From NCBI RefSeq assembly GCF_963676065.1, contig NZ_OY780933.1, positions 2,332,122 to 2,396,121 of the forward strand: 64,000 nucleotides of DNA, written 5' to 3'. The notes beneath the pieces were generated by a model. It was not told the DNA's origin. It made no database searches and was given only the letters and a program-made list of their open reading frames with translations. Of this stretch, positions 2,839-52,584 are shown one piece after another. Numbering within the stretch: position 1 is the first letter of the stretch; the number at the start of each line of letters is the position of its first letter. A program made the position numbers and the translations under genes. The stretch comes from Maridesulfovibrio sp. (GTDB lineage: Bacteria > Desulfobacterota > Desulfovibrionia > Desulfovibrionales > Desulfovibrionaceae).

Positions 2839-2987
2839 TTTTAGGTAAAGAAAGATCTTATGTAATAACCTATACTTCGAAAGAAGACCGCTACAAATCC
2901 AGACAGAAGTTGTTTCGGAATGCGGTCTTAGTTTTGAAATGATTGAAGATTAAATTGCGCACTTTGGAAACTAAGCAGGGGAAATTC

Positions 2988-5453
2988 ATGGCAGAACAAG
3001 GTAGTGAACTCATAGAAAAATATGGAGCAGATTTGCTGCTTTTTACCGACAGCAGGATATTGAATGGTATTATCTGGAATTATCCCGCTTATTCGGATGA
3101 AGAGTGGGCGTTAATTTTAAAGTCCGTTTCAACAGCTGCGCGTACACGGGTTCTGGATCATCTGCCGCAGGCCAGAAGAGAGAGCGTCTCTGCTCTGAGT
3201 AAGTCAATACCTCTACCTTCACATGAGCAGTTGGCCGTTCTGATTGCCGATTTTTTAAGGTGCTATAGTTTTAGTTCTTGTCTTTTTCCCGATAAGGACT
3301 TTGATGATTTTGAGCATTTTGATAGTCCGCCGCTGAAGCCCAAATTCCTTTGGATTGAAGAATCGTACAGCTCGTTTACTGCCGACCCTGAAGACACCAT
3401 AGTTCGCTGGCTGATGATAACAAATGCCTGGCGTGAGCACGGGGGGATTGTTTTTGATTCACTCCTTGAAGCTGACATAGATATTTATACACGGGAAATA
3501 CTCATGAGAGCCATGCAGACCCCAAACAGTAAAAAGTTTGAGGTCCGGGATTTGCGTGAATCCCTGCTTGGTGAAGTTAGAAATACTCTTGAAGGAATGT
3601 CGGAACTGTTCCTTGGAATATGTAAAGGTGATAGGCCGGATAAGTTTATTGCGCTACTTGCGGATAAATTTAATCTGAAGCAGTCGGAGGTGCATCCGGG
3701 GCCAATCATGCATGAAAGCATAGTGGAAGGCCCGCAAAATACAGAGTCCGTTAATTCCATGCTCGGATTGATGGATAAAGCTTTGAATGATGGAATTCTT
3801 TCCGTTGATATTGATGTTCCTAAGATCACTTCTTCTTTTTTCCGCGATGGACTTACCCATGTGACTGACGGTTTTGAACCGGAAACACTTGAGCTTTGGG
3901 CTAAGGGGCGTATCAACCTTATTTTGCAGTATGTGGGTTGGTCTTTTGACATTGTGGAAACCGGATGCCGTTGTATTTTAGGCTCGTTTTCTCCTCATAT
4001 GACCAGAGTGGCGCTTCAGGCTCATGTTTTTGAGAAATTGCCCATGACCAGAGAAACAGGCCTGCTTCCACAAGAGGGAAACAATGAAAATAAGACTGAA
4101 TATTCCGCAATACAAGGAGATGATGGTTCCAAGTTCTTTGTGGATCAAGGCGATGATCCTGCCACCCTCTTCGGCTGGTTTGTTTTTAAATTATCTCTGG
4201 ACGAAGTGAAGTCAGGCAATCCACATGATTTTGATCAACTTTCCGTTGTTGCTGAATTGGCGTCGATGATCCCTCCTAAGCGTTGGGTTGGGATGGATTA
4301 CGTGCTTTCACAGCAGCAACGCATTGATGCTTTTCACTTAGGACTTGAATTCATAGTTCAGAGTAATGAAGAGGAAATAGGCATAAGTCTTTTGAATCTG
4401 GTCCAGAATCTTCAGCCTGATTTTGACGCACTCTCTGACAATTACACCCAATACAGGGGCATGTATCAGGAATTGGCCGGACTGAAATATTGGGACGCCT
4501 TACTTTTGGAGCGAATTGAATTTGCACAACTTCTTGGTCGGCTCAGGGCAGAAGAAATTGCATCTTTTGCTTCATCTTCATGGGGCTTTTTTGCAGCAAA
4601 TGTAGGAATGCCTGTGGGGGAACAGAGGGGGGCAGGCTGTTCATGGCAGCAGGCAAGTTCAAGTCTTCTTGCAGGTCTTGCAGACATGATTATCTCGAAT
4701 TATGATTTTAAGGTGTCAGCATGCGAGCAAAGAGACAAAAAGAGCCCTGCTGTTAGGCTTATTGATACTCTGGTCAAAAAATATGCGGATACTTTTGTCT
4801 ATGGTTCCGCTCCTGTGCATAAGAGCCTCTCCGAGAAGGTAGTTGCGGGATTGTACGTGATGGATGCGCTGGAGAGGGTCTCGGTGTTCAGCAGGCTTCA
4901 TGAGAATATAATCCTTCATGTCCTGCTGGAGCTTGAGCCGTATACAGATGATTTTGACCTGATCTGTTCTCTGCTTCCACATTTGAATCAGGAGAAGCGC
5001 GAGTCGCTTCAAACTGTTATTATTGATTCCGATTGTAAAATAGCTGTGACTTTAACCAGAGTTTTAAGTTTCGGTTTTGATCAGATGATTGAATTGTCGG
5101 ATTACCAGATTCGTGAACTGCTGAAATATGTTTCCAATGTTGATTTATGTTTGGCCCTTGCGGATGCTTCCGAGGAGTTGATAGAACTTTTTATGTCCAA
5201 CATGTCGGAAAGGGCAGGGGATATGATCAGGGAAGATATGGAAATGCAGGGTTGCAGCCTTAATCAGGAACAGGTGTTTAAGGCGAAGTATAATCTGGTA
5301 AAAGTTGTGCTGGAGTATGGTCTACTTTCATCGGAACAAGATTGCGGCCAGGATAGCAATGAGAGCATCGTGCAGCGGATTGTTGCTGTGGCCAGTGATT
5401 TTGATGATGACGACCTGTTCAGTGACCCGGACGACATCTTTAGCGAAAATTAG
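2988..5453 (+). CDS. Large soluble protein with FliG-C-like and MotA-cytoplasmic-loop-like modules; function unknown
   Basis: ATG at 2988 follows a GGGGA RBS; the ORF track starts at 2943. The C-terminal segment LALADASEELIELFMSNMSERAGDMIREDMEMQG resembles the FliG C-terminal domain. Internal GILSVDIDVPKITSSFFRDGLTHVTDGFEPE resembles the MotA TM2-TM3 loop. Acidic tail. No TM segments. Confidence 0.7.
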   Translation: MAEQGSELIEKYGADLLLFTDSRILNGIIWNYPAYSDEEWALILKSVSTAARTRVLDHLPQARRESVSALSKSIPLPSHEQLAVLIADFLRCYSFSSCLFPDKDFDDFEHFDSPPLKPKFLWIEESYSSFTADPEDTIVRWLMITNAWREHGGIVFDSLLEADIDIYTREILMRAMQTPNSKKFEVRDLRESLLGEVRNTLEGMSELFLGICKGDRPDKFIALLADKFNLKQSEVHPGPIMHESIVEGPQNTESVNSMLGLMDKALNDGILSVDIDVPKITSSFFRDGLTHVTDGFEPETLELWAKGRINLILQYVGWSFDIVETGCRCILGSFSPHMTRVALQAHVFEKLPMTRETGLLPQEGNNENKTEYSAIQGDDGSKFFVDQGDDPATLFGWFVFKLSLDEVKSGNPHDFDQLSVVAELASMIPPKRWVGMDYVLSQQQRIDAFHLGLEFIVQSNEEEIGISLLNLVQNLQPDFDALSDNYTQYRGMYQELAGLKYWDALLLERIEFAQLLGRLRAEEIASFASSSWGFFAANVGMPVGEQRGAGCSWQQASSSLLAGLADMIISNYDFKVSACEQRDKKSPAVRLIDTLVKKYADTFVYGSAPVHKSLSEKVVAGLYVMDALERVSVFSRLHENIILHVLLELEPYTDDFDLICSLLPHLNQEKRESLQTVIIDSDCKIAVTLTRVLSFGFDQMIELSDYQIRELLKYVSNVDLCLALADASEELIELFMSNMSERAGDMIREDMEMQGCSLNQEQVFKAKYNLVKVVLEYGLLSSEQDCGQDSNESIVQRIVAVASDFDDDDLFSDPDDIFSEN

Positions 5454-5498
5454 GACCAGTTGAGCTTTGTATTTATGTTTTGATTCTGGAGGTTGATC

Positions 5499-6110
5499 GT
5501 GAGCCTTGTGAGAATATTGTGTTTTGTGCTGTTAATGTTGCTTGCAGCGTGTGCCTCCCATCCGCTTGATATGTCGGATGATGAATGGGGTGCGCTCACT
5601 CTGCAACAAAAGCTTGAAGCACGTGAAAAGCAGGCTGAACTTGATTTAAAGGCCAGAGAACTGGCTGTAGAGCAGGAAAAACGAAGAAATGAGGAACGAA
5701 GAATTGCCAGAGTCAAAGAGCGTGAAGCAGATATTGCCAATGGTCTGATCGTTGAGTTCTATCCTGCTAAGGCTGCCTGTATTGGCGGCGATAAGTGCCG
5801 TCCTAGGGATGTCAATGAAATCATAATCCCTTTGCATGGGTTGTGTGCCATAGACGTTGTCCATATTTATGCCGATGACCGTGTGGGAAATCGGCATGAT
5901 GGGGTGCTTGAAGTTATGGCTGACCATTACCGTTTGGAGCGTGTCGACATCTCCAAGCGTAGCAAATGGTATCAGGTCTTTGCCGGGCGCAGGGCCCGTA
6001 ATGTGGTTTTGAAGACGGTAACTGATGATGAAGTGCAGGTTTACTGGGTCAAGGTGTTTGGTTCGCGGATTGATTCGGGCCAGATTGAATACCGGGTTAT
6101 TGAAAGGTAG
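5499..6110 (+). CDS. Lipoprotein with a charged coiled-coil segment and a C-terminal beta-rich domain; unknown function
   Basis: GTG at 5499 lies 6 nt after GGAGG. Lipobox LLAAC. E/R/K-rich stretch. 45 nt downstream of the previous gene. Confidence 0.6.
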   Translation: MSLVRILCFVLLMLLAACASHPLDMSDDEWGALTLQQKLEAREKQAELDLKARELAVEQEKRRNEERRIARVKEREADIANGLIVEFYPAKAACIGGDKCRPRDVNEIIIPLHGLCAIDVVHIYADDRVGNRHDGVLEVMADHYRLERVDISKRSKWYQVFAGRRARNVVLKTVTDDEVQVYWVKVFGSRIDSGQIEYRVIER

Positions 6111-6125
6111 AGATAGGTCGTTTTA

Positions 6126-7937
6126 ATGCTGAGTTATTTTTATATCCTTCACCGCCATCTCAAAAACATAACTCCGGTGGTTGTGGGTGTTTATACTTTT
6201 ATCCTTTTTCTGGGAGCGTTTTTCACTTTTCCTTTTTCTACTTCGCCATCAGATCTCATGGGGGTCTTTTTTTTAGGGGGGGGCGGAGCTTTAATCTTGG
6301 AAACATTGTCTTTGTTGGGCCTGATCCCTGCTTACGGCTGTGCCCCGTTTAGCGAGGGACTTATAAAGTTCGGGCTGGGGGCATTTTTTGTATGGGTTGC
6401 CTTTGATATGAGTCTTGCCGGTCAGGGAACCGCTACCATTGCTGTTATCTTTTATGTATTGACTGCTGGATTCTACGCACTCACTTTCCGTAAGCACAAA
6501 TGGTATAGTGTTGTTGCAACCGGTCCGCTCGGTTCATTTGATACTTTCATGGAAAAAATGGAATCTTCCGGGGCAGAACAATTCAAATATCTCGATAATA
6601 CGAAAGAAGGCCGCCACTATACTCTCAATAAATTTTTGGTAAATTTTAATGCTATTGAAACAGATCGCTGTACTTATACTGTGAGCAATCTGATGCCGCA
6701 GAATCTGAAATGTTTGAAAAAAATATTCGGGGAGATGGAGGGTATCACATCAATATGGGAGGGCCTTGATTTTCATAGCAACTGTCGTGTTACTAACGGC
6801 AATATCCAGCGCATATTTGATGATTCAACAGAACTTGACGAAGCTTATATCTATGGCAACGGGTTATTTCTTTCTTTACGTTCGAAAAATATTCTTTCCG
6901 GGATTCATGGTTCCCTTGAAAGGGAAGTTGGGCCGGGAAGGGGGCAGCTTCACCGGATTACCGTCAGTTTTGAACCCTATCCCCAAAAGAATGATTTTTT
7001 CCTGAACCTCAATACCCATAATCCCCAGGAGCTAGTGAAACTGCGAATAGTTAATCCTGCTGATGGTGATGAGAAAATTCAATGTCCTGAATTACTGGGG
7101 GAAAATATATCCTTTTCCGTTGTCCATGAAGGCCCGCTTGATACTTTTGGAAGTCGGTTGATTTTTAAGAAACATGGCGAAGATGGACGGGAGTATTTCC
7201 TGATCTCATACTCTTATCTTGAAGGAATTATTATCAAACCGATAAGCGGAGCCGAAGCAGCAAGTCTTCCAACTGTTTCGGTGGAAAAATACCTTGATTA
7301 CTGGAGCTGCTTTACTGCTTTGGATGCCGCTTCGAATGTTGAAGAAGAGGAGATTTTTGATCCCAATATTTTTATGGCACCGCGAGGAAACTTTATTCTT
7401 TTGGGCTATGATGAAAGTATTGATGAGCACCGTCATGCTGGAATTTTCCCGTCAGAAGGAAAAACCATTACCGAAGCTTTGAGGATAACAAAAAAATCTG
7501 ATCCAGATAATTTAGTTTATCAAGTGTATGATGAAAATGGGGACTGTCTTTTTGCTACGAACCAGAAAGCTCCTGTGAAGAGAGAGCATTTTGTGGCAAA
7601 GATGATGCGCTATAGTGGGCCCTTTTGGCATGAGTTTTTTGATGACGGCTATTGGAAGCTGCTTGTTGGAAGCTATACGTTGGCCTGGGTGGCATTAATT
7701 CCTTTGTTTGTCCCTTTTATGCAGGAGAACGGCCTGATCTTTCTGGCCTATGGTTTAATCCCTATAGCACTGGCCGGTATCCACCTGAGACTTTGGGGTG
7801 ATCTTTCACTCTATGCCACAAGCAGAGGTGGAAAGCTTAGCTGCGTTCTAGTGGGCATTTTTGGAACAATTGCCTTTACGTGTCTCTTGGCAATTTTGGT
7901 TGCTTTTCGGGTTAAATTACTCTGGTGTTTGGGCTAG
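6126..7937 (+). CDS. Polytopic membrane protein (N- and C-terminal TM bundles, about 380-aa central soluble domain); unknown function
   Basis: 603-aa ORF 15 nt after the lipoprotein gene. Hydrophobic helices at both ends. No motif I recognise. Confidence 0.6.
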   Translation: MLSYFYILHRHLKNITPVVVGVYTFILFLGAFFTFPFSTSPSDLMGVFFLGGGGALILETLSLLGLIPAYGCAPFSEGLIKFGLGAFFVWVAFDMSLAGQGTATIAVIFYVLTAGFYALTFRKHKWYSVVATGPLGSFDTFMEKMESSGAEQFKYLDNTKEGRHYTLNKFLVNFNAIETDRCTYTVSNLMPQNLKCLKKIFGEMEGITSIWEGLDFHSNCRVTNGNIQRIFDDSTELDEAYIYGNGLFLSLRSKNILSGIHGSLEREVGPGRGQLHRITVSFEPYPQKNDFFLNLNTHNPQELVKLRIVNPADGDEKIQCPELLGENISFSVVHEGPLDTFGSRLIFKKHGEDGREYFLISYSYLEGIIIKPISGAEAASLPTVSVEKYLDYWSCFTALDAASNVEEEEIFDPNIFMAPRGNFILLGYDESIDEHRHAGIFPSEGKTITEALRITKKSDPDNLVYQVYDENGDCLFATNQKAPVKREHFVAKMMRYSGPFWHEFFDDGYWKLLVGSYTLAWVALIPLFVPFMQENGLIFLAYGLIPIALAGIHLRLWGDLSLYATSRGGKLSCVLVGIFGTIAFTCLLAILVAFRVKLLWCLG

Positions 7938-8491
7938 CAGTACTTTTTATAATTAAGAATTTTTGACGCTAAACGATCAGCCAACATTTTGTTGGAATCT
8001 TTCAATTGTTCATGGATCAATTTTGCTTCTTCACGGTATTTGGCGCATTTTTCCTTTGTCCAGTAGGATGGCGGCGGCTGAAGATTTACAACCCGGTCTG
8101 CAAGTTTGACCAGTTGTGCTTCATGGGGGAGTTTCTTCAAGCGTTCGAGGCTGTCGGACATTTGGGCTTTCTTGTCAGGGAGGGATTTGTCTTTGGTTAA
8201 TCCTGTTACCCCATCTGCAACCCCCTTTCCGAACAGCTCTTCTAATTTTTCATAGGTTGTCTCTGTATCTTCAATGGTGTCGTGAAGCAAAGCGCAACAG
8301 ACCGCCAGATCGCAATCCATGTCTGACGGGCTGACAGCCAATGCAGACATTACTTCCATGGCAACAGCACCGACATGCAAGATGTATGGTTTTTCTGTTC
8401 CGGGTACACATTGCCCAAGGTGCTTTTGCGCTGCAAAGTTCCAAGCTTTCATATATGTGTCTTGCGAGATGAAATTCAAATTGTTCTCCAT
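7934..8491 (-). CDS. HD-domain (p)ppGpp hydrolase-like protein (small alarmone hydrolase type)
   Basis: AAQKHLGQ, LLHDTIEDT and KLADRVVNL are typical of the RelA/SpoT hydrolase domain. 185 aa, single domain. Confidence 0.75.
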   Translation of the reverse strand: MENNLNFISQDTYMKAWNFAAQKHLGQCVPGTEKPYILHVGAVAMEVMSALAVSPSDMDCDLAVCCALLHDTIEDTETTYEKLEELFGKGVADGVTGLTKDKSLPDKKAQMSDSLERLKKLPHEAQLVKLADRVVNLQPPPSYWTKEKCAKYREEAKLIHEQLKDSNKMLADRLASKILNYKKYC

Positions 8492-8764: not shown

Positions 8765-9427
8765 TTAAATTTCCTTTAAAAAATATTCACCAGTCCACTT
8801 ATAGCCTTCTTCCATAAAGTCTTTAAAATGTTTTGGGTCAGTGATATTATTTTCAATAAGCCACCTGACAAAGCGACCTTTAATGTGCTTTCCCTGGTGA
8901 CCTGCCGGCATCTTCTTACCTGCTTTTTTTAGAACAAATTCAACCTCAATTCCATGATCATATTTTACAGCTTTCTTGTGTGCTTGCGGTAATAAATCAA
9001 TAACAAATTTGTTTTTCAATTGCTCTGAATTGGAATTCACCCATAACTTGGCAGCTTTTAATTTATCAATTTTTAAACGATAATTAGGAATCAAATCAGA
9101 CGGGCTTACAAGGCCAAATAGACCTGAAACAATTAACACTTTTTTATCGAAGTCAGATTTATTTTTCAAAGTTTGATAATCAATTGCGTCATAAACTACG
9201 CCTGTATACCGTTCAATAGCAGGCATTGTTTTTGAAATTAAGACTTCCTTATTTACAGTAATAGCTTTCTCGAGAGCCGTTTTCTTAAGTCCATATAGCT
9301 TTATGGGATCAGCTTCTTTAATCGCTTCAATTAAGTCGGCAGCAATACCTGATACAGACTTTAGAGGTTTATTGTGTCCGCCGTCAGCTTTACCCTCAGA
9401 TGGTGGAATTAAGATAATAGTTTTCAT
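8765..9427 (-). CDS. yaaA: YaaA/DUF328 family protein (peroxide-stress protein family)
   Basis: PPSEGK start, ERYTGVVYDAIDY, SGLFGLVSPSDLIPNYRLKI, HIKGRFVRWLIEN. The gene is markedly AT-rich compared with its neighbours. Confidence 0.7.
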   Translation of the reverse strand: MKTIILIPPSEGKADGGHNKPLKSVSGIAADLIEAIKEADPIKLYGLKKTALEKAITVNKEVLISKTMPAIERYTGVVYDAIDYQTLKNKSDFDKKVLIVSGLFGLVSPSDLIPNYRLKIDKLKAAKLWVNSNSEQLKNKFVIDLLPQAHKKAVKYDHGIEVEFVLKKAGKKMPAGHQGKHIKGRFVRWLIENNITDPKHFKDFMEEGYKWTGEYFLKEI

Positions 9428-9820: not shown

Positions 9821-9925
9821 CGTGCTGGTTAACCTGCGGGTAAACAAGGTCAACTCGGGGCTACCTCAAGCAAAGATGTACAGGCTCGAACGGTCAAATT
9901 TCTAACTGTTGATTATTCCTAAGTC

Positions 9926-9990
9926 GTAACGAAATTTTGTTGTTAATACACTAAATTTCGTTTCTTCAACGAAATAGCGTTGTTATGTTT
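9926..9990. promoter_or_regulatory. Candidate enhancer (UAS) repeats for the sigma-54 activator
   Basis: 18-nt direct repeats aacgaaatNNNgttgtta at 9928 and 9968 (15/18 identical, 40-bp period). An inverted copy aaatttcgtt lies at 9954-9963. The repeats end about 60-120 bp upstream of the -24 element. Confidence 0.5.
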
Positions 9991-10047
9991 TAGTGTCAAA
10001 AAATAAATAGTTCATTATTTCGGTGGCTTATTTGGTTTTATCTCGTA

Positions 10048-10061
10048 GGCACAGCTCTTGC
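10048..10061 (+). promoter_or_regulatory. Sigma-54 (-24/-12) promoter
   Basis: GGCAC-agctc-TTGC has exact GG-N10-GC spacing and a near-consensus TGGCAC-N5-TTGC. It lies about 125 nt upstream of the ATG at 10185. Confidence 0.75.
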
Positions 10062-10184
10062 CTTATAGCTGAATAAAATAACTTAAGCCAAAAGCCTTTG
10101 GGGTATTTTTGAGCGACAGCAATAATCGGCTTGCGTTGGTCAAAGTGCCTACCTTAGGTGAAACAGCCATCGAGGAATGCAGAA

Positions 10185-12206
10185 ATGGGAAACGAAAAGC
10201 ATACACATGAACATGATCATAGTCACGGTCACCATCATCATAGCCACGGGCACCATCATCATAACCACAACGATTTCACTGACTACAAGAATGCAGTCAA
10301 AGAATATCGTCAGTCATTTGCCAGTAAAAAGGATGTAATGGAGCAGGCCCCTGATCCGGCTGTACGGGACATGGTTAAATATATGGATGAGCAGGGTGTA
10401 GAAAACTGTTTTGATCGTTTCGACAAGCAGAAACCGCACTGCACCTTTGGGTTGGCAGGGGTCTGTTGTAAAATATGCTCCCTTGGTCCCTGTAAGATCA
10501 CTGAACGTTCTCCCCGTGGAACATGCGGTGCTGATGCTGATCTTATTGTTGCCCGAAATCTGGTCAGGTCGGCTGCAGGTGGCGTTGCCGCACATGGAGC
10601 TCGTGCGCGGGAGATCATTCTCACTCTGAAAAAAGCAGCAGAAGGCGATGTTAATCTGCCTATTGAAGGTGTGAATAAGGTCAAAGCTGTTGCCGACATG
10701 TTCAATCTTGATGTTAAGAACAGCACTATCGAAGAGCTGGCTGGACAAATCGCAGACATTCTTTTGGAAGATTTAAGTAGAGCAGTCCCCGGAACTCATA
10801 AGACGCTTGATGCTGTAGCTACGTATGAAAGAAAATTAGTTTGGGAGAATCTGGATTTACTTCCTGTTGGTTCATACCATGAAGTTTTCGAAGCCCTGCA
10901 TCAGACCACCGTCGGCACTCAGGGAGATTGGCGTAAAGCCATGGATCAATTCATGCGCCTTGGTGTCGCATTTTCAATGAACAGCGTTGTTGGCGGTTCT
11001 ATTGCAAGCGACTGTCTTTACGGTGTGCCTCAGCGGACCACCGTCAAAGCCAATTTGGGGGCATTGAAAACAGACACAGTAAATATTGCAGTCCATGGAC
11101 ACGCCCCTCAGATGGCAATGGAAGTGATAAAAACAGCCCGCAGTGAGAAGTTCGTTGAAATGGCGAAAGAAGCGGGAGCAACTGGTATTCAGTTTTACGG
11201 TATTTGTTGTTCCGGATTGTCATCTCTGTACAGGCTTGGAGGAGTAATTCCCCTTTCCAACGCCAACGGATCTGAACTTGTTCTCGCAACAGGTGCTCTT
11301 GATCTTTGGATGGCTGATATTCAGGAAATATTTCCGGGTATTATGGATGTTGCAAACTGCTACAAGACTGTAGTCGTGACAACTAACGAGTCAAACCGTC
11401 TGCCCGGAGCAGAGCATATCGGTTATAAACGTGACCTTTCTGATCTGGACAAACTTCCAGAAATGGCAGAGCGCATTGTTACCCGCGCAATTGAAAGCTT
11501 TAAGAATCGTCGCGATGTAAAGAGACATATTCCCGAGCATGAGGTTGAGGCTGAAGTTGGATTTAACCTTGAAACACTCAAGGCCCGCTATGGTTCACTT
11601 TCAACAATAGCCTCGGCATTGATTGAAGGAAAGATCAAGGGAATCATCAACCTCGCAGGATGCACAAACACCAGAATCGTATTTGAAAAAGCGATCGTGG
11701 ATATCGTCGATATCCTGTTGAAAAACAACGTACTGGTCTTTACCAACGGATGCGCTTCCTTTCCTATGGCCAAGTTGGGATATTGTTCCAGCAAAGGGCA
11801 GGAAAAATGCGGCGACAAGCTGCTTAGATTCCTAGGTCCTAAAATGCCTCCTGTCTGGCATTTTGGTGAATGCATAGATAATGCACACTCTGTATCTGTG
11901 TTTAGAGAAATAGCAAAGTATACCGGACGTCATTTGAAAGATCTGCCTTTTGCCGAAGTGACCCCGGAATGGTCCAATGAAAAAGGTGTGGGAGCAGCTC
12001 TCGCTTATCGCATGCTCGGTTTCAATTCCTATCACTGCGTTCATGCCCCAGTTCAAGGTTCTAAAAAAGTTGAAGAATTCCTTTATAACGGCACAAAGGA
12101 ATTGCTCGGCTCGTGCATGAACGTTGATCCCGATCCTGCAAAAGTAGCCGCAATGATCCTCAGGGATTTTGACGAAGCCAGATCTAATGTGTGCTGGCGG
12201 TCATAG
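10185..12206 (+). CDS. cooS: CooS-family (Ni-CODH/prismane family) protein, deviant: poly-His N-terminus and one cluster Cys replaced by Glu
   Basis: ATG at 10185 follows a GAGGA RBS. Motifs CTFGLAGVCCKICSLGPCKI, GTCGADA, IAVHGH, GICCSG, LAGCTN, TNGCAS, HFGECIDN. DIQEIFP occurs where canonical enzymes have D-x-Q-C. Confidence 0.85.
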   Translation: MGNEKHTHEHDHSHGHHHHSHGHHHHNHNDFTDYKNAVKEYRQSFASKKDVMEQAPDPAVRDMVKYMDEQGVENCFDRFDKQKPHCTFGLAGVCCKICSLGPCKITERSPRGTCGADADLIVARNLVRSAAGGVAAHGARAREIILTLKKAAEGDVNLPIEGVNKVKAVADMFNLDVKNSTIEELAGQIADILLEDLSRAVPGTHKTLDAVATYERKLVWENLDLLPVGSYHEVFEALHQTTVGTQGDWRKAMDQFMRLGVAFSMNSVVGGSIASDCLYGVPQRTTVKANLGALKTDTVNIAVHGHAPQMAMEVIKTARSEKFVEMAKEAGATGIQFYGICCSGLSSLYRLGGVIPLSNANGSELVLATGALDLWMADIQEIFPGIMDVANCYKTVVVTTNESNRLPGAEHIGYKRDLSDLDKLPEMAERIVTRAIESFKNRRDVKRHIPEHEVEAEVGFNLETLKARYGSLSTIASALIEGKIKGIINLAGCTNTRIVFEKAIVDIVDILLKNNVLVFTNGCASFPMAKLGYCSSKGQEKCGDKLLRFLGPKMPPVWHFGECIDNAHSVSVFREIAKYTGRHLKDLPFAEVTPEWSNEKGVGAALAYRMLGFNSYHCVHAPVQGSKKVEEFLYNGTKELLGSCMNVDPDPAKVAAMILRDFDEARSNVCWRS

Positions 12207-12349
12207 TCCAATTAGCAATAACGTTTGTTTGTAGCCTCGATGGCTTACGCAGCCGGCTCCGGTCTTTCCGACCACATCACCGGGGTCGGCTGTGCAACCA
12301 TCCGGTTTGCTATCAAGACTAATTCGTAATGATGTCCTTGGGGTAATAG

Positions 12350-13111
12350 ATGCATTTCAGATCAACTTCGGTACAGTTCAGATTATCCAGACCATGCCGC
12401 GAAGAATTTTCAAAAGAATTATATCGTCCGGGAGTTGTTTCTCTGACGCGTATAATCTGGGGCTCTCTTGGTGGTGGGCTACTGCTGTGGTTCATCGCTA
12501 TTCTTTCCGGAAAAACAGGAATCAATGTCCTTTATCCTCCTCTTGCAGCAACATGTTTCATAAACACTACCTGTGTCTTTTTGCGTGTTGCACGTCCAAA
12601 GTCAGTAATAGTCGGACATACGGTAGCTTCAATCTGCGGATTGGCTGGAGTCTGGATAGGAAATTATATCGCCCCGGGGCCCGAATTCATAATCCCTGTG
12701 AAGCTTGGACTTTCCGTCATGCTCGCGGCTGTCTTCATGCAGATATTTGATGCCGACCACCCACCTGCAGCCGCCACTGCAGCCATACCGGCGATACTCC
12801 CACTCCCCATGCCTTGGTACTTGCTCCCACTGCACATGGCATGGGGTGCCACAATAACCGTTATCTTTGCGTTTATCTGGAATAGAATCTGGTTTGAATT
12901 TCCTGTCCGGGATAGTGATAACTGCGTCAAAAACGCAGGGCTATACATGGAAAAGGTTCAAATTGCGGGCTTAGCAATATGTATAGTCAGTTGTATGATT
13001 ATGTGCTTTCAATCCATATCCCCTACAATCAGAATGTCCGGTCTCTGGGGTATGGCTGTAGGGAATATAATTCTCGGGACACATCATTTTTATAATATTA
13101 CCTCAAGTTAA
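12350..13111 (+). CDS. HPP-family integral membrane protein
   Basis: Signature FDADHPPAAATAAIP plus PKSVIVGHTVASICGL. Multiple TM helices. Confidence 0.75.
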   Translation: MHFRSTSVQFRLSRPCREEFSKELYRPGVVSLTRIIWGSLGGGLLLWFIAILSGKTGINVLYPPLAATCFINTTCVFLRVARPKSVIVGHTVASICGLAGVWIGNYIAPGPEFIIPVKLGLSVMLAAVFMQIFDADHPPAAATAAIPAILPLPMPWYLLPLHMAWGATITVIFAFIWNRIWFEFPVRDSDNCVKNAGLYMEKVQIAGLAICIVSCMIMCFQSISPTIRMSGLWGMAVGNIILGTHHFYNITSS

Positions 13112-13232
13112 TTAAAAGGAGGGATTGTCATTAGAAATTAATAAAGGCAGGACATGGATTAGCGGATGTTTATAATCTGAGATATACCTACCAACCTCAA
13201 AAAAATATCTCCATGTCCTGTCTCATAAGACT

Positions 13233-14900
13233 ATGTTACTGCCATTTCTATTGTCAGTCGGAATAATTATGTTTAGAACTTCAGGCATGGCTGACGAAAA
13301 AACTTTTCACTTCAGAAATGAGAAAATTCAATCTCTTTTGCTGGAGATGGGGCAACAAAGGTCTACCGGATCTCTTTTCACTCTTATAGTAAATGGGCTG
13401 GCCCAATTCCCGAATATTTCCCTCGCTCGAATATGGCTAATCAAAAATGGCGATATCTGTCCCTCATGCCCTTTACAAGATGAGTGTCTGAATCAAAAAG
13501 AATGTCTGCACTTGGTTGCCAGCGCCGGACAGTCCGTTTTTGATTCTGCTGTAGATTGGGCACGTATAGACGGTGATCATCGACGTTTTCCTTTGGGAGC
13601 CAGAAAGGTAGGGCATATCGCTGCTACAGGAACTCCCGTCATAGTGAAATCAATATCCAAAGACTCCAAGTGGATACTCCATCAAGATTGGGCAAAGCGG
13701 GAAGGAATAAATGGATTTGCCGGTCAACCGATGGTTTACCATGGTGCAACTATGGGGGTTCTGGCTGTTTTTACCAAGAGTGAAATAGCCCAACCCGCTC
13801 TTGAGATACTGAATATTATCTCAAACCATGCTGCTGCTGCACTTGTTAACGCACGGGCTTTTGAGAAAATAGAAGAACTGAGACGACGTCTTGAGTCCGA
13901 AAACAGCTATTTGCGTGAAGAGTTGATGAGTTCAACCTCTTTCGGCGGATTCATTGGTCAAAGTGCTCCACTACAAAGAATTATCCAGCAGATAGACCTT
14001 GTAGCGTCCACAGACGCAAGCGTATTGATACTGGGCGAATCTGGAACAGGAAAAGAACTGGTCGCCCGAGAACTTCACCAGCGAAGCGCACGCCGAAGCA
14101 GTCCCATGATCAAGGTGAATTGTGCTTCCATTCCCAAAGATTTATTTTCGAGTGAATTTTTCGGCCATGTTAAAGGTGCATTCTCCGGTGCTGTCGCTAA
14201 CAGGGTTGGTAAGTTCGGTGCCGCGCACAAGGGGACTCTGTTTCTTGATGAAATAGGGGAAATCCCCCTTGAGCAGCAGGCTCATCTACTTAGGATTTTG
14301 CAGGAAGGAGAGTACGAACGTGTCGGAGAGGAAAAGACTCGTAAGGTTGATGTAAGAATTATTGCCGCAACCAACAAGGATCTTAAAACCGAGATTGAAA
14401 ACGGTAGATTCAGGGAAGATCTCTATTTTCGGCTTAATGTCTTTCCTATTGATGTCCCGCCGCTACGAGAGCGAAAGGAAGATATCGTGCTCTTGGCAAA
14501 TCATTTCTTAAAGCAATTTCTTTTAGAAATTAAACGGCCTGTATTTCAATTTACAGATGCGCAGCTACAAAAGCTGGAACAGTATTCATGGCCCGGTAAT
14601 GTTAGAGAGCTTCAAAATATAGTTGAACGTTTTGCTATCACCTCCAGCTCTGATCCAAGAAATCTAGATTTTTTTAACAGTCTGAAGTCAGAGCTGCCGT
14701 CCGTAGAACAATTCCAAACCAGCGATTCCAGTGAACAGATATTAACTGAGCATGAACTGGAGCAGATACAGAAAAAAAACATAGAAAGAGCCCTTAAATT
14801 GTGCCGGGGTAAGATTTATGGAACTGATGGCGCCGCGAAATTGTTGGGTTTAAAGCCCACAACTCTTGCCAGTCGTATAAAGAAGATGGATATTAGTTAG
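13233..14900 (+). CDS. Sigma-54-dependent transcriptional activator (GAF + AAA+ + Fis-type HTH; NorR-like architecture)
   Basis: GESGTGKE Walker A, GAFSGA (GAFTGA variant), ELQN, C-terminal AAKLLGLKPTTLASRIKK. The N-terminal GAF-like region carries a Cys-rich insert. The start is uncertain (alternative ATGs at 13269 and 13287). Confidence 0.85.
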   Translation: MLLPFLLSVGIIMFRTSGMADEKTFHFRNEKIQSLLLEMGQQRSTGSLFTLIVNGLAQFPNISLARIWLIKNGDICPSCPLQDECLNQKECLHLVASAGQSVFDSAVDWARIDGDHRRFPLGARKVGHIAATGTPVIVKSISKDSKWILHQDWAKREGINGFAGQPMVYHGATMGVLAVFTKSEIAQPALEILNIISNHAAAALVNARAFEKIEELRRRLESENSYLREELMSSTSFGGFIGQSAPLQRIIQQIDLVASTDASVLILGESGTGKELVARELHQRSARRSSPMIKVNCASIPKDLFSSEFFGHVKGAFSGAVANRVGKFGAAHKGTLFLDEIGEIPLEQQAHLLRILQEGEYERVGEEKTRKVDVRIIAATNKDLKTEIENGRFREDLYFRLNVFPIDVPPLRERKEDIVLLANHFLKQFLLEIKRPVFQFTDAQLQKLEQYSWPGNVRELQNIVERFAITSSSDPRNLDFFNSLKSELPSVEQFQTSDSSEQILTEHELEQIQKKNIERALKLCRGKIYGTDGAAKLLGLKPTTLASRIKKMDIS

Positions 14901-15107: not shown

Positions 15108-16121
15108 TTAAGCTACGTCCTTACTTTGATTCTTCGCCATAATATTTAACGCAATCCTTAATTGTTTCGCAGTTTCAAGATCGTTGCGTGCATTAGCTGC
15201 CTCCAGTCCCAATCGTGCCTTCTCCTCGAAATTAATACGCGTCTGGTCGGTCTCCATGCTCATGGATTGTCCTGTTGTTGCGGATATCTTGAGCGTCATG
15301 GACATTAGCGGAAAACTTTCATCCAATGACATCCGTCCGCCTCGAACTTCTCCATTCATCCAATCTAGCAGCTCCTTTCGGGTCGCATCAGAGAAATTAA
15401 TGGTGGAGGACTCATCAGCCTTGTCGGGGGTTGATTCATTTGTTGCTGTAGAATTCTTTGGTATGGCAGTTTCTTCCACCTGAGTCGCTTTAACATCTGC
15501 CGAATTTTCGGGCTGTCCCTGCAAGTTCGTCTGGTCGGCCTGAGATGATAATGTGGATGATGCACCCACAGTCATTATGAACGCATCATTATTATTTTGC
15601 CCAAAGAGTTGCTCCCCGAACTGGGCAACCGCAGCATAAGGGTTCTTCTTGTATTGCTTAGCAAATTCCGTGTGGGTATGTCCTGCCTCAACCATGCTGG
15701 ACATAGCGCTAACCCTTTTGAAATCATTTTCAAGATCAGCGTTGTCTGCAAAGAGTTGTTCTATTTGTTCGGCTTGGGGATGGTTACCTGAAACCCGCAC
15801 ATGCCCCTCTTCATCGGACGTTAACTGTACCTCCGGGGGAGTGTTTATGCCGTTTTCAAGAAACATGGCCGTAATATCACTGTTCAGGTTCTGCCGTTTC
15901 TGTTGCAGTCCGGTTTCAATATCATCCAGAGAAACGCTTTTCCCGGGAGTGTAGGCAACGCCCATATCGGCAAAGAAGCCTGATATTAGTTTGCCAGTCT
16001 TTGATATGCTGACTTTATCCTGATTGGCAGCTGGTTGCGTCTGTTGTCTGGTGGTATATGACTTTTGTGAGTCGTAGCTGACCTGCTGCAACTGTGTGTT
16101 GGCTCTCAATGAATTGATCAT
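15108..16121 (-). CDS. Hypothetical Q/S/T-rich protein, no signal peptide
   Basis: 337-aa ORF with a GGAGGA RBS. No motif I recognise. Confidence 0.5.
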   Translation of the reverse strand: MINSLRANTQLQQVSYDSQKSYTTRQQTQPAANQDKVSISKTGKLISGFFADMGVAYTPGKSVSLDDIETGLQQKRQNLNSDITAMFLENGINTPPEVQLTSDEEGHVRVSGNHPQAEQIEQLFADNADLENDFKRVSAMSSMVEAGHTHTEFAKQYKKNPYAAVAQFGEQLFGQNNNDAFIMTVGASSTLSSQADQTNLQGQPENSADVKATQVEETAIPKNSTATNESTPDKADESSTINFSDATRKELLDWMNGEVRGGRMSLDESFPLMSMTLKISATTGQSMSMETDQTRINFEEKARLGLEAANARNDLETAKQLRIALNIMAKNQSKDVA

Positions 16122-25858: not shown

Positions 25859-25951
25859 CCTATTCTTATTTATCTATACTGTTTACGTTGCCATCTGTTT
25901 TTATGCAACGAATATTGTGCTCTATTTGCCTAATTTTCCGGAAAAAGGCTT

Positions 25952-27040: not shown

Positions 27041-27053
27041 GTTACCAACCTTT

Positions 27054-29141: not shown

Positions 29142-29208
29142 GATTTTGACACCCCTTTCAGGTCTATTTTACTGTGGCATTTTAACCCCGGAAGAGGTGT
29201 ACAGGCCT

Positions 29209-30270: not shown

Positions 30271-30281
30271 TAAGCCGCCTC

Positions 30282-36437: not shown

Positions 36438-36549
36438 AGCTACTTGCGTTTATTCATTAAAATGATTAGTTCGTAAACCAAAGACAATTCCCCTATTGAA
36501 TAGGGTCCTATTCAGTAGTTATGTAAATCTCAAAACAGAGGTTCGGTTC

Positions 36550-45622: not shown

Positions 45623-49159
<3,537 letters not shown>

Positions 49160-49171
49160 TAACACCCGCGT

Positions 49172-49206
49172 CTGCAGACGGGCCTACACAGGTGGCCCGT
49201 CTGCAG
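49172..49206 (+). other. Intercistronic stem-loop (no U-tract)
   Basis: 13-bp perfect arms ctgcagacgggcc/ggcccgtctgcag. Two more hairpins follow before lctP. Confidence 0.7.
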
Positions 49207-51094: not shown

Positions 51095-51107
51095 TTAAAT
51101 ACGTCCC

Positions 51108-52583: not shown

Positions 52584-52584
52584 G

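What the first reader, a model, noticed from the sequence alone, without database searches (positions are those of the whole stretch)
11316..11336. C-cluster cysteine position reads Glu (DIQEIFP instead of D-x-Q-C-I-x-P)
I aligned by eye to Carboxydothermus hydrogenoformans CODH-II, using its sequence and ligand numbering from memory. His261, Cys295, Cys446, Cys476 and Cys526 all have equivalents here (IAVHGH, GICCSG, LAGCTN, TNGCAS, GECIDN). The Cys333 position (ILDYQCIQP) reads ADIQEIFP, with the Glu codon GAA at 11325-11327. As I recall the literature, CooS homologs lacking one canonical Cys (CooS-V of C. hydrogenoformans) carry an Fe-S-O hybrid cluster, do not oxidise CO, and slowly turn over hydroxylamine. 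A carboxylate ligand is also an HCP-like feature.
Basis: partly seen in the sequence, partly recalled or inferred. Interest (0 to 1): 0.75.

Follow-up and report, generated by a model that had tools for sequence, protein, structure and literature searches.

The report
Known clade B CODH carboxylate variant
The Glu is real, but it is the already catalogued hallmark (Asp or Glu for one cluster cysteine) of "clade B" CO-dehydrogenase-like enzymes; the part I could not find published is that in sulfate reducers this enzyme travels as a small sigma-54-controlled cassette with an HPP membrane protein.

Summary
Observation confirmed. GAA at 11325-11327 encodes a Glu (E381 from ATG 10185; E390 from GTG 10158). 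In every alignment to solved CODHs it falls on Cys333 of C. hydrogenoformans CODH-II. The other five C-cluster ligands, His93 and Lys563 are kept.

It is not new. Inoue et al. 2019 define Ni-CODH structural group B-1 as H-C-(D/E)-C-C-C with a His-rich N-terminus. Their supplementary table lists members of this protein's own 90% cluster as "B-1 ... E".

The CooS-V/HCP analogy points to the wrong ligand: CooS-V replaces Cys295, which is kept here. The one characterised clade B enzyme, RfCODH (Asp at this site; Bohm et al. 2026), binds some Ni, oxidises CO about 10^4-fold more slowly than CODH-II, and reduces hydroxylamine slowly.

Beyond the finding: in sulfate reducers of three phyla, the Glu sub-lineage (>=72% identity) is always followed by an HPP-family membrane protein. 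It sits beside a GAF/sigma-54 activator carrying a conserved 4-Cys motif. Upstream lie a conserved -24/-12 promoter and three ACG-N6-CGT sites. Asp-type relatives carry the known NitT/TauT ABC importer instead.

The physiological substrate is unknown. My inference is an imported small anion.

The parts
9929..9980 (+). Upstream activator sites: three ACG-N6-CGT dyads (9929-9940 ACGAAATTTTGT, imperfect; 9950-9961 ACTAAATTTCGT, imperfect; 9969-9980 ACGAAATAGCGT). They lie at -118, -97 and -78 from the -24 element.
   Evidence: The same dyads occur at about -119/-97/-78 in 22 of 24 orthologous loci scanned (23 fetched plus the window), from three phyla. The AACG and CGTT columns are invariant in the Maridesulfovibrio alignment. 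About 0.05 are expected per 220 nt by chance. Binding by the neighbouring activator is inferred.
10047..10061 (+). Sigma-54 type -24/-12 promoter element, aGGCACagctcTTGC
   Evidence: A TGGCAC-N5-TTGC element scoring at least 8 of 10 was found at a similar distance upstream of cooS in the window and in 25 of 26 fetched gene copies. In the window as a whole such loose matches are not enriched. The evidence is therefore the conserved position, not the match itself.
10185..12206 (+). cooS-like gene: Ni-CODH homolog, clade B, structural group B-1 (673 aa; the mechanical ORF starts at GTG 10158)
   Evidence: Pfam Prismane 441 bits. TIGR01702 477.9 bits against a cutoff of 478. PDB hits to CODHs down to 1.9e-113. 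Model TM 0.86-0.94 to CODHs. Cluster-mates are listed as B-1 in Inoue 2019 Supplementary Table 1.
10200..10268 (+). His-rich N-terminal region (HTHEHDHSHGHHHHSHGHHHHNH; 15 His in 23 residues)
   Evidence: Nearly all of the 120 closest homologs have such a His-rich N-terminus. Residues 1-28 are disordered in the model, pLDDT below 50. This region is a defining feature of group B-1.
10593..10595 (+). H137, the equivalent of acid-base His93 of CODH-II. Downstream, His96, His99 and His102 are replaced by Arg, Glu and Leu.
   Evidence: Alignment and codons. Glu and Leu at the His99 and His102 positions are reported as clade B signatures.
11094..11096 (+). H304, the equivalent of C-cluster ligand His261
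   Evidence: invariant in the family.
11208..11210 (+). C342, the equivalent of C-cluster ligand Cys295. This is the residue replaced in CooS-V; it is kept here.
   Evidence: for CooS-V.
11325..11327 (+). E381 (GAA), at the position of C-cluster ligand Cys333. This is the finding.
   Evidence: D or E in 119 of the 120 closest homologs and never C. Synonymous codon use across loci.
11661..11663 (+). C493, the equivalent of Cys446
11751..11753 (+). C523, the equivalent of Cys476
11871..11873 (+). C563, the equivalent of Cys526 (the Ni ligand in CODH-II)
11982..11984 (+). K600, the equivalent of acid-base Lys563
12250..12292 (+). Stable hairpin in the cooS-HPP spacer, with no U-tract after it
   Evidence: Fold of 12207-12349: -49.4 kcal/mol, z = -3.5. 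No intrinsic terminator was found between the two genes. Its role is unknown.
12350..13111 (+). HPP-family membrane protein (253 aa; HPP motif at 12758-12766), probably co-transcribed with cooS
   Evidence: Pfam TM_HPP 91.5 bits. It lies directly downstream of cooS at every Glu-subclade locus not cut by a contig end, or of the downstream copy where cooS is duplicated; 34 gene copies in all. The motif Q[IV]FDADHPPAAATA is conserved. Model pLDDT 91.6, eight helices, no solved structural analogue.
13233..14900 (+). Sigma-54 enhancer-binding protein: GAF-like sensor with a C-x2-C-x5-C-x5-C motif (13458-13505), an AAA+ domain with GAFSGA (14175-14192), and a Fis-type HTH
   Evidence: Pfam hits. Below the NorR, NifA and FhlA equivalog cutoffs. 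It is adjacent to cooS in most of the fetched Glu-subclade loci, upstream, downstream or on the opposite strand. The Cys motif is kept in all 24 orthologs examined. A sigma-70-like promoter lies at 13149-13176.

Best explanation
**What it is (shown).** The ORF encodes a clade B, structural group B-1 member of the CooS-type Ni-CODH family. In this lineage the second cysteine ligand of the C-cluster, Cys333 in CODH-II numbering, is replaced by a carboxylate. That cysteine ligates one Fe of the [Ni3Fe4S] cubane. The replacement is usually Asp; here it is Glu. The family also carries a His-rich N-terminal tail.

**What the enzyme is probably like (inferred from RfCODH).** It probably assembles a Ni-containing but altered and more labile C-cluster, has restricted gas and proton paths, and is not a physiological CO oxidiser or CO2 reducer.

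**The cassette.** In this genome the gene is the first gene of a self-contained unit of about 5 kb, window about 9880-14900:
- three activator sites,
- a sigma-54 promoter,
- cooS(B-1, Glu),
- an HPP-family membrane protein,
- a GAF/sigma-54 activator with a 4-Cys motif.

**How it probably works (inferred).** The activator senses a signal through a metal or Fe-S site in its GAF domain and switches on cooS-HPP. HPP plays the part that the NitT/TauT ABC importer plays in Asp-type clade B operons: it brings a small solute, most likely an anion, to the cytoplasmic enzyme. The enzyme then reduces or transforms that solute at the modified cluster. Nitrite or a related N-oxyanion is the leading candidate, but it is untested.

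**Asp versus Glu.** The choice looks like a conservative and recurrent swap, not a change of function.
For: **Classification**
- Alignments to solved CODHs, the Pfam and NCBIfam hits and the fold match place it in the CooS family.
- Inoue 2019 Table 2 defines B-1 as type II D-cluster, H C D/E C C C, His and Lys kept, and a His-rich N-terminus.
- Their Supplementary Table 1 lists WP_085101402 as 'B, B-1 ... H C E C C C'. That protein is in the same 90% cluster as the window protein. The Pseudodesulfovibrio, D. longus and Desulfosporosinus orthologs are listed the same way.
- The clade B signatures Glu and Leu at the His99 and His102 positions are present.

**Enzyme behaviour, by analogy with RfCODH**
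- 0.2-0.5 Ni and 6-8 Fe per monomer.
- CO oxidation 0.013 U/mg, against 280-900 U/mg for CODH-II.
- No detectable CO2 reduction.
- NH2OH reduction 0.066 U/mg.
- A Ni(I)-like EPR signal and Cred1.

**Cassette**
- cooS-HPP adjacency: 34 of 34 uncut Glu-subclade gene copies, 0 of 59 uncut Asp-type copies. Of those 59, 42 carry NMT1_2/permease/ATPase genes.
- The -24/-12 element was found upstream of the window gene and 25 of 26 fetched copies.
- The ACG-N6-CGT triplet sits at fixed positions in 22 of 24 loci.
- The 4-Cys motif is kept in 24 of 24 activators examined.
- DNA homology to other Maridesulfovibrio genomes is almost wholly confined to 9880-14900.
- No cooC, cooF or Ni-transporter genes are nearby.

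**Recurrent D/E swap**
- Two Clostridial-type B-1 lineages carry Glu together with an ABC importer.

**Candidate solute**
- HPP proteins transport nitrite in cyanobacteria and plastids (Maeda 2014, cited in PMC7438415).
- An HPP gene is NO-induced in D. desulfuricans.
- The NitT/TauT-type binding proteins of clade B resemble nitrate and bicarbonate binders.
Against: - No biochemical data exist for any Glu-type member. RfCODH has Asp, is less than 60% identical, and was incompletely matured in E. coli, so its low activity may understate the native enzyme.
- The C-cluster was not resolved in the RfCODH structure. Ligation of Fe by the carboxylate is therefore assumed, not seen.
- HPP's role as a transporter of the enzyme's substrate is inferred from gene order alone.
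- The closest non-cassette HPP relatives sit beside Tat-less PsrA/PhsA-like molybdoenzymes. That pattern would fit a sulfur, selenium or arsenic oxyanion, or a membrane-anchor role, as well as it fits nitrite.
- RfCODH did not reduce nitrate or bicarbonate. Nitrite is not among the substrates the paper reports testing.
- The Glu-HPP association is confined to one sub-lineage, so it may be phylogenetic rather than functional.
- Co-transcription, sigma-54 dependence and activator binding are predicted from sequence conservation only.
Confidence: 0.75

Rival explanations
1. This is a CooS-V/HCP-like enzyme that lacks Ni, carries an Fe-S-O hybrid cluster held partly by the carboxylate, and acts as a hydroxylamine or NO-type reductase.
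For: - A carboxylate replaces one cluster cysteine.
- RfCODH has sub-stoichiometric Ni, unusual oxidised-cluster EPR signals and some NH2OH reductase activity.
- Carboxylate ligation tends to make clusters labile.
- The HPP and NitT-type transporters fit N-oxyanion chemistry.
Against: - The substituted ligand differs. CooS-V and HCP have Glu at the Cys295 position and Cys at the Cys333 position. Here Cys295 is kept.
- His93 is kept here, whereas group D-1 has Tyr.
- RfCODH shows Ni(I)-like and Cred1 EPR signals and cyanide binding at Ni.
- The family has a His-rich tail of the Ni-chaperone kind.
- CooS-V is the most distant of the CooS-type (CODH) chains matched in the PDB search.
- RfCODH's NH2OH rate is lower than those reported for CooS-V and PfHCP, and the authors call NH2OH 'a rather questionable substrate'.
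Confidence: 0.12
2. It is a genuine CO dehydrogenase. Glu is a tolerated substitute for the Fe-ligating cysteine, and with proper maturation in the native host the enzyme oxidises CO at useful rates, for example for CO detoxification in sulfate reducers.
For: - Five of the six ligands and both acid-base residues are kept.
- The His-rich tail could load Ni without CooC.
- RfCODH oxidises CO measurably and gives a Cred1 signal with CO.
- RfCODH's maturation in E. coli was incomplete.
Against: - The activity is 10^3 to 10^5 times lower, which the authors say is not explained by Ni content alone.
- Gas channels are blocked and the His99/His102 proton relay is replaced, here as well.
- No cooC, cooF, hydrogenase or ACS partner is nearby.
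- The family is consistently linked to solute transporters, which a freely diffusing gas would not need.
- One genome with the Glu-type gene (L010) also carries a canonical DYQCIMP CODH nearby.
Confidence: 0.12
3. HPP is not a substrate channel. It is a membrane anchor or electron-transfer partner that docks the soluble enzyme to the membrane, as PsrC or NrfD does for PsrAB-type enzymes.
For: - The closest HPP relatives outside the cassette (53-57% identity) lie next to a Tat-less PsrA/PhsA-like catalytic subunit and a four-cluster Fe-S subunit. No PsrC-like gene was seen. This held in 4 of 4 lineages checked.
- The HPP fold has no solved analogue, so a transporter mechanism is unproven.
Against: - The only experimental function for an HPP protein is nitrite transport.
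- HPP occupies the operon slot held by an ABC importer in sister lineages at 69-75% identity.
- No haem or quinone-site motifs are known for the family (my own knowledge).
Confidence: 0.15
4. It is an artefact: a misalignment, a sequencing error or a decaying pseudogene.
For: - The TIGR01702 score falls just under its cutoff (477.9 against 478).
- Many RefSeq copies are named 'hypothetical protein'.
- One relative has Gly at the site and has lost HPP.
Against: - The alignments around the site are gap-free.
- The 673-codon ORF is intact.
- Identity is 75-98% across three phyla.
- The carboxylate is conserved with synonymous codon variation.
Confidence: 0.01

Closest known systems
Ni-CODH clade B, structural group B-1 (Inoue et al. 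2019, Front Microbiol, PMC6344411)
   Same: - Every defining sequence feature matches: type II D-cluster cysteines, C-cluster pattern H-C-(D/E)-C-C-C, His93 and Lys563 kept, His-rich N-terminus.
- Members of the same 90% cluster are listed there explicitly with 'E' at this position.
   Different: - The usual clade B neighbour, a NitT/TauT ABC transporter (64% of clade B operons), is absent here.
- An HPP membrane protein and a GAF/sigma-54 activator take its place.
- In Inoue's context table the downstream gene appears without a COG, so the COG-based network could not register it.
RfCODH of Ruminococcus flavefaciens, the first characterised clade B enzyme (Bohm et al. 2026, PMC13592312)
   Same: - A carboxylate at the Cys333 position.
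- A His-rich disordered N-terminus followed by an extra N-terminal extension.
- Glu and Leu at the His99 and His102 positions.
- No maturase genes nearby.
- A transporter-linked operon.
   Different: - Asp415 rather than Glu.
- The nearest Clostridial-type relatives of the window protein are about 55-60% identical to it. RfCODH itself was not compared.
- An ABC importer plus two hypothetical proteins rather than HPP plus an activator.
- A gut fermenter rather than a marine sulfate reducer.
CooS-V of C. hydrogenoformans (group D-1; Jeoung et al. 2022, PMC9311411)
   Same: - A CooS scaffold with one C-cluster cysteine replaced by Glu.
- Annotated as a CODH.
- Slow NH2OH reduction in the characterised enzyme.
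   Different: - The replaced residue is Cys295, the ligand of the exo Fe, not Cys333.
- Tyr instead of His93.
- A [2Fe-2S] D-cluster.
- A Ni-free [4Fe-3S-nO] hybrid cluster.
- The most distant of the CooS-type (CODH) chains matched in the PDB search.
Hybrid cluster protein (HCP)
   Same: The same Prismane superfamily (PF03063), with carboxylate ligands in the active-site cluster.
   Different: According to Inoue et al., HCP shares the D-1 pattern: Glu at the Cys295 position, Cys at the Cys333 position, and an extra Glu near the Lys. The window protein has the opposite arrangement. I did not make a direct alignment to HCP.
NorR-type three-site sigma-54 control (E. coli norVW)
   Same: A GAF-domain sigma-54 activator next to its target operon, with three evenly spaced dyad sites upstream of a -24/-12 promoter. 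The comparison with NorR rests on my own knowledge.
   Different: - Not a NorR equivalog (381 bits against a cutoff of 476, and the match is mostly in the AAA+ domain).
- The dyad is ACG-N6-CGT rather than GT-N7-AC.
- The GAF region carries a 4-Cys motif not found in NorR.

Membership tests
Ni-CODH clade B / structural group B-1 (Inoue 2019) | CooS/Prismane fold | tested here: met
   PF03063 441 bits. PDB CODH hits to 1.9e-113. Model TM 0.86-0.94.
Ni-CODH clade B / structural group B-1 (Inoue 2019) | C-cluster ligand pattern His-Cys-(Asp/Glu)-Cys-Cys-Cys | tested here: met
   H304, C342, E381, C493, C523, C563.
Ni-CODH clade B / structural group B-1 (Inoue 2019) | Acid-base His93 and Lys563 retained | tested here: met
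   H137 and K600.
Ni-CODH clade B / structural group B-1 (Inoue 2019) | [quoted passage not shown] | tested here: met
   15 His in residues 6-28. Also seen in nearly all of the 120 closest homologs.
Ni-CODH clade B / structural group B-1 (Inoue 2019) | Type II D-cluster cysteines (equivalents of Cys39 and Cys47 of CODH-II) | tested here: met
   C86 and C94 align to them. The B-cluster cysteines C95, C98, C103 and C114 are also present.
Ni-CODH clade B / structural group B-1 (Inoue 2019) | Placement in clade B by the authors' own phylogeny | tested here: met
   Cluster-mate WP_085101402 and orthologs WP_066801790/91, WP_022660290/92, WP_014186667, WP_014904234 and WP_007785302 are listed as clade B, B-1, 'E'. 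I did not build my own tree.
Ni-CODH clade B / structural group B-1 (Inoue 2019) | Neighbouring NitT/TauT ABC transporter (typical but not universal: 64% of clade B) | tested here: not met
   No NMT1_2, permease or ATPase genes lie near cooS in the window or in any Glu-subclade locus. HPP is there instead. Asp-type relatives at 69-75% identity do have the ABC genes.
Ni-CODH clade B (Bohm 2026 signatures) | Glu and Leu at the His99 and His102 positions of the proton relay | tested here: met
   AAH-GAR-ARE-IIL aligns to GH-SGH-AKH-LAH of CODH-II (the signatures are described).
Canonical Ni,Fe-CODH (CODH-II type; NCBIfam TIGR01702 equivalog) | All six C-cluster ligands: His261, Cys295, Cys333, Cys446, Cys476, Cys526 | tested here: not met
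   Glu at the Cys333 position.
Canonical Ni,Fe-CODH (CODH-II type; NCBIfam TIGR01702 equivalog) | Score at or above the curated equivalog cutoff | tested here: not met
   477.9 bits against a cutoff of 478. The miss is marginal.
Canonical Ni,Fe-CODH (CODH-II type; NCBIfam TIGR01702 equivalog) | Stoichiometric Ni and fast CO oxidation | not testable with these tools
   The only analogue is RfCODH: 0.2-0.5 Ni per monomer and 0.013 U/mg.
CooS-V type (group D-1) | Cys295 replaced by Glu | tested here: not met
   Cys295 is retained as C342.
CooS-V type (group D-1) | Tyr at the His93 position | tested here: not met
   His (H137) is present.
Hybrid cluster protein | Glu at the Cys295-equivalent position and Cys at the Cys333-equivalent position | tested here: not met
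   The window protein has the opposite arrangement. The HCP pattern is taken from Inoue 2019, not from an alignment of my own.
HPP family (PF04982), for the downstream gene | Pfam model above the gathering score, and the HPP motif | tested here: met
   91.5 bits against 27.2. The motif DADHPPAAATA is at residues 134-144.
HPP family (PF04982), for the downstream gene | Nitrite transport activity | not testable with these tools
   Known only for cyanobacterial and plastid members.
Sigma-54-dependent operon | -24/-12 element (GG-N10-GC) upstream, and an adjacent AAA+ activator with a GAFTGA-type loop | tested here: met
   aGGCAC-N5-TTGC at 10047-10061, conserved upstream of 25 of 26 fetched gene copies. 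The activator has PF00158 at 238 bits and a GAFSGA loop. Activity itself was not tested.

The most novel reading that the evidence does not exclude
The Glu itself is catalogued. The cassette around it does not appear in any paper I could search. A sub-lineage of clade B CODH-like enzymes has replaced the NitT/TauT ABC importer with an HPP-family membrane protein. It has also acquired a dedicated sigma-54 activator whose GAF domain carries a conserved 4-Cys site, possibly Fe-S.

The unit of about 5 kb has spread among sulfate reducers of three phyla: Desulfovibrionaceae, Desulforhopalus, and Desulfosporosinus/Pelotomaculum.

If HPP and the ABC importer deliver the same solute, the cassette gives an independent handle on the unknown physiological substrate of clade B enzymes. 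Bohm et al. 2026 state explicitly that this substrate is an open question. The handle points to a small anion. Nitrite is the only solute shown experimentally for an HPP protein, and it is not among the substrates the RfCODH paper reports testing. Cyanate, thiocyanate or sulfur oxyanions remain possible.

The same HPP subfamily also partners Tat-less PsrA-like molybdoenzymes in bacteria and in an Asgard archaeon. That suggests a general role as a supply channel for cytoplasmic reductases.
Probability: 0.3. Interest if true: 0.65.

Novelty: already known. Interest (0 to 1): 0.3.

Why it matters
The finding as stated adds nothing new. The Cys-to-Asp/Glu change at the Cys333 position was catalogued in 2019, and the first enzyme of the clade was characterised in 2026.

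It does matter for annotation. The gene should not be read as evidence of CO metabolism in this sulfate reducer, nor as a CooS-V or HCP analogue.

The useful by-product is the conserved cooS-HPP-activator cassette with its predicted promoter and operator sites. It offers genetically tractable hosts such as Pseudodesulfovibrio and Desulfosporosinus. It also offers a single-gene transporter and a dedicated regulator whose inducer could be screened. All three could help identify the still unknown substrate of clade B enzymes.

Tried and rejected
- **Misregistered by-eye alignment:** rejected.
- **Strict Glu-HPP coupling, that is, Glu as an adaptation to the HPP-delivered substrate:** rejected as a rule. 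Two Clostridial-type lineages have Glu with an ABC importer. The 20 positions that separate the E and D groups are confounded by phylogeny.
- **Activator = NorR, NifA or FhlA:** all are below the equivalog cutoffs. The PDB search of its sensor domain gave only marginal GAF hits.
- **Inferring the HPP mechanism from structure:** the model is confident, but Foldseek found no PDB analogue (best TM 0.26). There was no sequence hit in the PDB either.
- **Identifying the Mo-enzyme next to HPP relatives:** the nearest matches are PsrA/PhsA, but all are far below the equivalog cutoffs, so no substrate could be assigned.
- **Riboswitch or known RNA in the leader:** none.
- **Compositional island:** GC is unremarkable.
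- **Nearby cooC, cooF, Ni-transport or ABC genes in the window:** none. The ParA-like gene at 25022-25858 sits in the flagellar cluster and is presumably FlhG.
- **Sigma-54 promoter from a window-wide pattern count:** uninformative. There were 22 loose matches against 34 expected. Only the cross-locus conservation is evidence.
- **Ligand geometry in the AlphaFold model:** could not be inspected, because the tool returns no coordinates and the model has no metals.
- **Direct alignment to CooS-V or HCP sequences:** not made. Those comparisons rest on published tables.

Full report
**1. The observation**

The window carries a + strand ORF at 10158..12206. The database copy P0001, which is 100% identical, starts at ATG 10185, nine codons downstream of the GTG. 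That ATG is preceded by GAGG. Bases 11316-11336 encode D-I-Q-E-I-F-P, with GAA at 11325-11327.

phmmer against all PDB chains gives CooS-type CODHs as the only strong hits. They include 6t7j (Thermococcus sp. AM4) at 1.9e-113, 6elq (CODH-IV) at 1.8e-112, and CODH-II at about 1e-91 to 1e-95. CooS-V (7b7q) is the weakest of them at 5e-72. In all five printed alignments 'DiQEifP' lies opposite 'D(y/v)QCi.P' without gaps.

They add His93 = H137, Lys563 = K600, and the B- and D-cluster cysteines.

**2. Is it more than chance?**

- Among the 120 closest proteins in a database of 5.8 billion sequences, the site is Asp in 93, Glu in 26 and Gly in 1. It is never Cys.
- In 100 distinct genomic and metagenomic loci the codons are GAT 35, GAC 28, GAA 25, GAG 11 and GGA 1.
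- Both synonymous codons of each residue are in use, so selection maintains the carboxylate.
- The Glu-bearing sequences are 72-98% identical to the window protein. They come from Maridesulfovibrio (the source genus; L001 is 96-98% identical), Pseudodesulfovibrio, Salidesulfovibrio, Halodesulfovibrio, Desulfocurvus, Desulforhopalus, Desulfosporosinus and Pelotomaculum.

**3. It is already catalogued**

Inoue et al. 2019 (PMC6344411) sorted 1,942 Ni-CODHs into structural groups. Group B-1 of clade B has these features:
- a type II D-cluster,
- C-cluster residues 'H C D/E C C C',
- the acid-base residues His and Lys,

The window protein has all of them, including 15 His in residues 6-28.

Their Supplementary Table 1 lists WP_085101402 (Desulfovibrio sp. 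[quoted passage not shown] That protein is a member of the window protein's own 90% cluster. The Pseudodesulfovibrio indicus, D. longus and Desulfosporosinus orthologs are listed the same way.

Bohm et al. [quoted passage not shown] The further clade B signatures they describe, Glu and Leu at the His99 and His102 positions, are present here as well.

**4.

- CooS-V belongs to group D-1. Its missing cysteine is Cys295, replaced by Glu295. It has Tyr in place of His93.
- By Inoue's alignment, HCP shares the D-1 pattern.
- The window protein keeps Cys295 and His93. The CooS-V/HCP analogy therefore concerns a different ligand.
- The one characterised clade B enzyme, RfCODH (Asp415), gave these values:
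  - 0.2-0.5 Ni and 6-8 Fe per monomer,
  - CO oxidation at 0.013 U/mg, against 280-900 U/mg for CODH-II,
  - no detectable CO2 reduction,
  - NH2OH reduction at 0.066 U/mg,
  - no nitrate or bicarbonate reduction,
  - a Ni(I)-like EPR signal, a Cred1 signal with CO, and cyanide binding at Ni,
  - new oxidised-cluster EPR signals,
  - blocked gas channels,
  - an unresolved C-cluster.
- 'Not a normal CODH, slow hydroxylamine turnover' therefore holds by analogy. 'Ni-free Fe-S-O hybrid cluster' is not supported.

**5. What surrounds the gene**

The usual clade B partner is a NitT/TauT ABC importer (64% of clade B operons). It is absent here.

Instead cooS is followed after 143 nt by an HPP-family membrane protein at 12350-13111 (PF04982, 91.5 bits). 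No terminator lies between the two genes. Next comes a sigma-54 enhancer-binding protein at 13233-14900.

I fetched 26 genome loci and 80 metagenome loci and scored their neighbours by tblastn. The numbers are cooS gene copies, including a few duplicate records, and the 'cut' class is by an automatic distance-to-contig-end rule.

| Residue at the site | HPP next to it | ABC genes next to it | Neither | Cut by contig end |
|---|---|---|---|---|
| Glu | 34 | 2 | 1 | 5 |
| Asp | 0 | 42 | 17 | 16 |
| Gly | 0 | 0 | 1 | 0 |

- Asp-type Desulfovibrionaceae relatives at 69-75% identity carry NMT1_2/permease/ATPase genes.
- The two Glu-plus-ABC loci are Clostridial-type sequences at 57-59% identity.
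- Glu has therefore arisen more than once, and HPP marks a single sub-lineage. Asp and Glu look interchangeable.
- The single Gly variant has lost HPP but kept the activator.

**6. Regulation**

- A TGGCAC-N5-TTGC element lies upstream of cooS in the window (10047-10061) and upstream of 25 of 26 fetched gene copies.
- Up to three ACG-N6-CGT dyads sit at about -119, -97 and -78 from that element in 22 of 24 loci, across three phyla.
- The activator is adjacent in most of the fetched Glu-subclade loci, upstream, downstream or on the opposite strand.
- All 24 activator orthologs examined keep C-x2-C-x5-C-x5-C inside 'GDIC..C.....C.....CLHL' of the GAF-like domain.
- The activator is not a NorR, NifA or FhlA equivalog.
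- Fe-S clusters in the GAF domains of sigma-54 activators have a precedent in VnfA (my own knowledge).
- DNA similarity between the window and other Maridesulfovibrio genomes runs only from about 9880 to 14900, apart from two ~340-bp matches in L002; the flanks are otherwise unrelated. The cassette is therefore a discrete unit that sits in different neighbourhoods. Its presence in Firmicutes at 75-77% protein identity implies lateral transfer.

**7. What might HPP do?**

- The only demonstrated HPP function is nitrite transport in cyanobacteria and plastids (Maeda 2014, cited in PMC7438415).
- An HPP gene is NO-induced within the HcpR1 cluster of D. desulfuricans.
- The nearest HPP relatives outside the cassette are 53-57% identical. 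They come from Desulfocurvibacter africanus, an Anaerolineae bacterium, a Hodarchaeales archaeon and one other lineage.
- All four lie beside a PsrA/PhsA-like molybdoenzyme of about 711 aa and a four-cluster Fe-S subunit. The molybdoenzyme's alignments begin at about residue 40 of PhsA and PsrA, past where their Tat signal peptides should lie (my reading), so it is probably cytoplasmic.
- In D. africanus that cluster is preceded by an ECF sigma factor fused to an NMT1_2/SsuA-like domain.
- This HPP subfamily is thus a recurrent partner of cytoplasmic redox enzymes.
- Whether it supplies substrate (my preferred reading) or anchors the enzyme cannot be decided here. Its confidently predicted eight-helix fold has no solved analogue.

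**8. Verdict**

- The finding is accurate but ordinary. It is the published signature of clade B/B-1 CODH-like proteins, and the CooS-V/HCP comparison is misplaced.
- In the full-text library I searched, the only paper that mentions both the HPP family and carbon monoxide dehydrogenase does so in unrelated rows of one gene-expression table; none links them. In Inoue's context table the downstream gene appears only as a gene without a COG.
- The cooS-HPP-activator cassette is therefore a modest new lead towards the unknown substrate of clade B enzymes.
- Function, metal content and regulation remain inferred.

Noticed in passing
L023:7998-9995 and L025:8046-9635 (Desulfovibrio sp. PCE-4 and 7SRBS1): A degenerate paralog about 50% identical to the window CooS. 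In L023 the Cys295 pair is lost (FYGLSNSNL instead of FYGICCSG), HGH becomes HGY, there is no His-rich tail and no HPP gene. It still sits next to a 65-68% identical 4-Cys activator, and in L023 behind a perfect TGGCAC-N5-TTGC promoter with three ACG-N6-CGT sites (L025: weak promoter match, no dyads). This could be a non-catalytic or sensor derivative.
   Followed up: partly
L036-L039 (Desulfocurvibacter africanus, Anaerolineae, Hodarchaeales archaeon, one other): HPP proteins 53-57% identical to the window HPP lie next to a Tat-less PsrA/PhsA-like molybdopterin oxidoreductase (about 711 aa) and a four-cluster ferredoxin subunit in 4 of 4 lineages checked. In D. africanus the cluster follows an ECF sigma factor fused to an NMT1_2/SsuA-like binding domain. 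This appears to be an undescribed HPP-molybdoenzyme module.
   Followed up: partly
L007, L009, L028, L029 (Pseudodesulfovibrio karagichevae and indicus, Desulfovibrio caledoniensis): Two tandem Glu-type cooS copies (about 80% identical to the window protein) are separated by a DUF169 gene on the opposite strand. Only the second copy is followed by HPP and the activator, but each copy has its own sigma-54 promoter and dyads. The Gly-variant locus L035 keeps DUF169 and the activator but lacks HPP, and has a transposase nearby.
   Followed up: partly
window 12250-12292: A 15-bp GC-rich hairpin lies in the cooS-HPP spacer with no U-tract after it (spacer fold -49.4 kcal/mol, z = -3.5). It might set the ratio of enzyme to membrane protein. 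I did not check whether it is conserved in other loci.
   Followed up: no
window 10185-12206: The protein scores 477.9 bits against the 478-bit cutoff of the NCBIfam equivalog TIGR01702. That marginal miss may explain why RefSeq names many orthologs 'hypothetical protein' while others are called anaerobic CODH catalytic subunit.
   Followed up: yes
window 9880-14900 versus L001-L006: Nucleotide homology to other Maridesulfovibrio genomes runs from just upstream of (or, in the more distant genomes, just inside) the leader to the activator's stop codon. Apart from two ~340-bp matches in L002, the flanking genes here (YaaA-like 8765-9427, HD-domain 7934-8491, an unknown 337-aa ORF 15108-16121 with no family hit, a DEAD-box helicase 17021-18235) have no match in the fetched flanks of those loci. 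No repeats or integrase genes were looked for at the borders.
   Followed up: partly
window 2943-5453 (+): An 836-aa ORF whose only family hit is a FliG C-terminal domain near its C-terminus (residues 706-790). It is followed by two ORFs with no family hits (5493-6110 and 6126-7937). This is unusually long for a FliG-like protein.
   Followed up: no
window 24289-31085 (-) and 45635-53880 (+): Ordinary Desulfovibrio-type content. There is a flagellar export and regulation cluster (FliA, FlhG-like ParA, FlhF, FlhA, FlhB, FliR). There is also a pyruvate:ferredoxin oxidoreductase, lactate permease and FAD/CCG lactate dehydrogenase cluster, downstream of a histidine kinase and sigma-54 response regulator pair (41059-45202). 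A CoA-disulfide-reductase-like protein with a rhodanese domain lies at 36496-38256.
   Followed up: no
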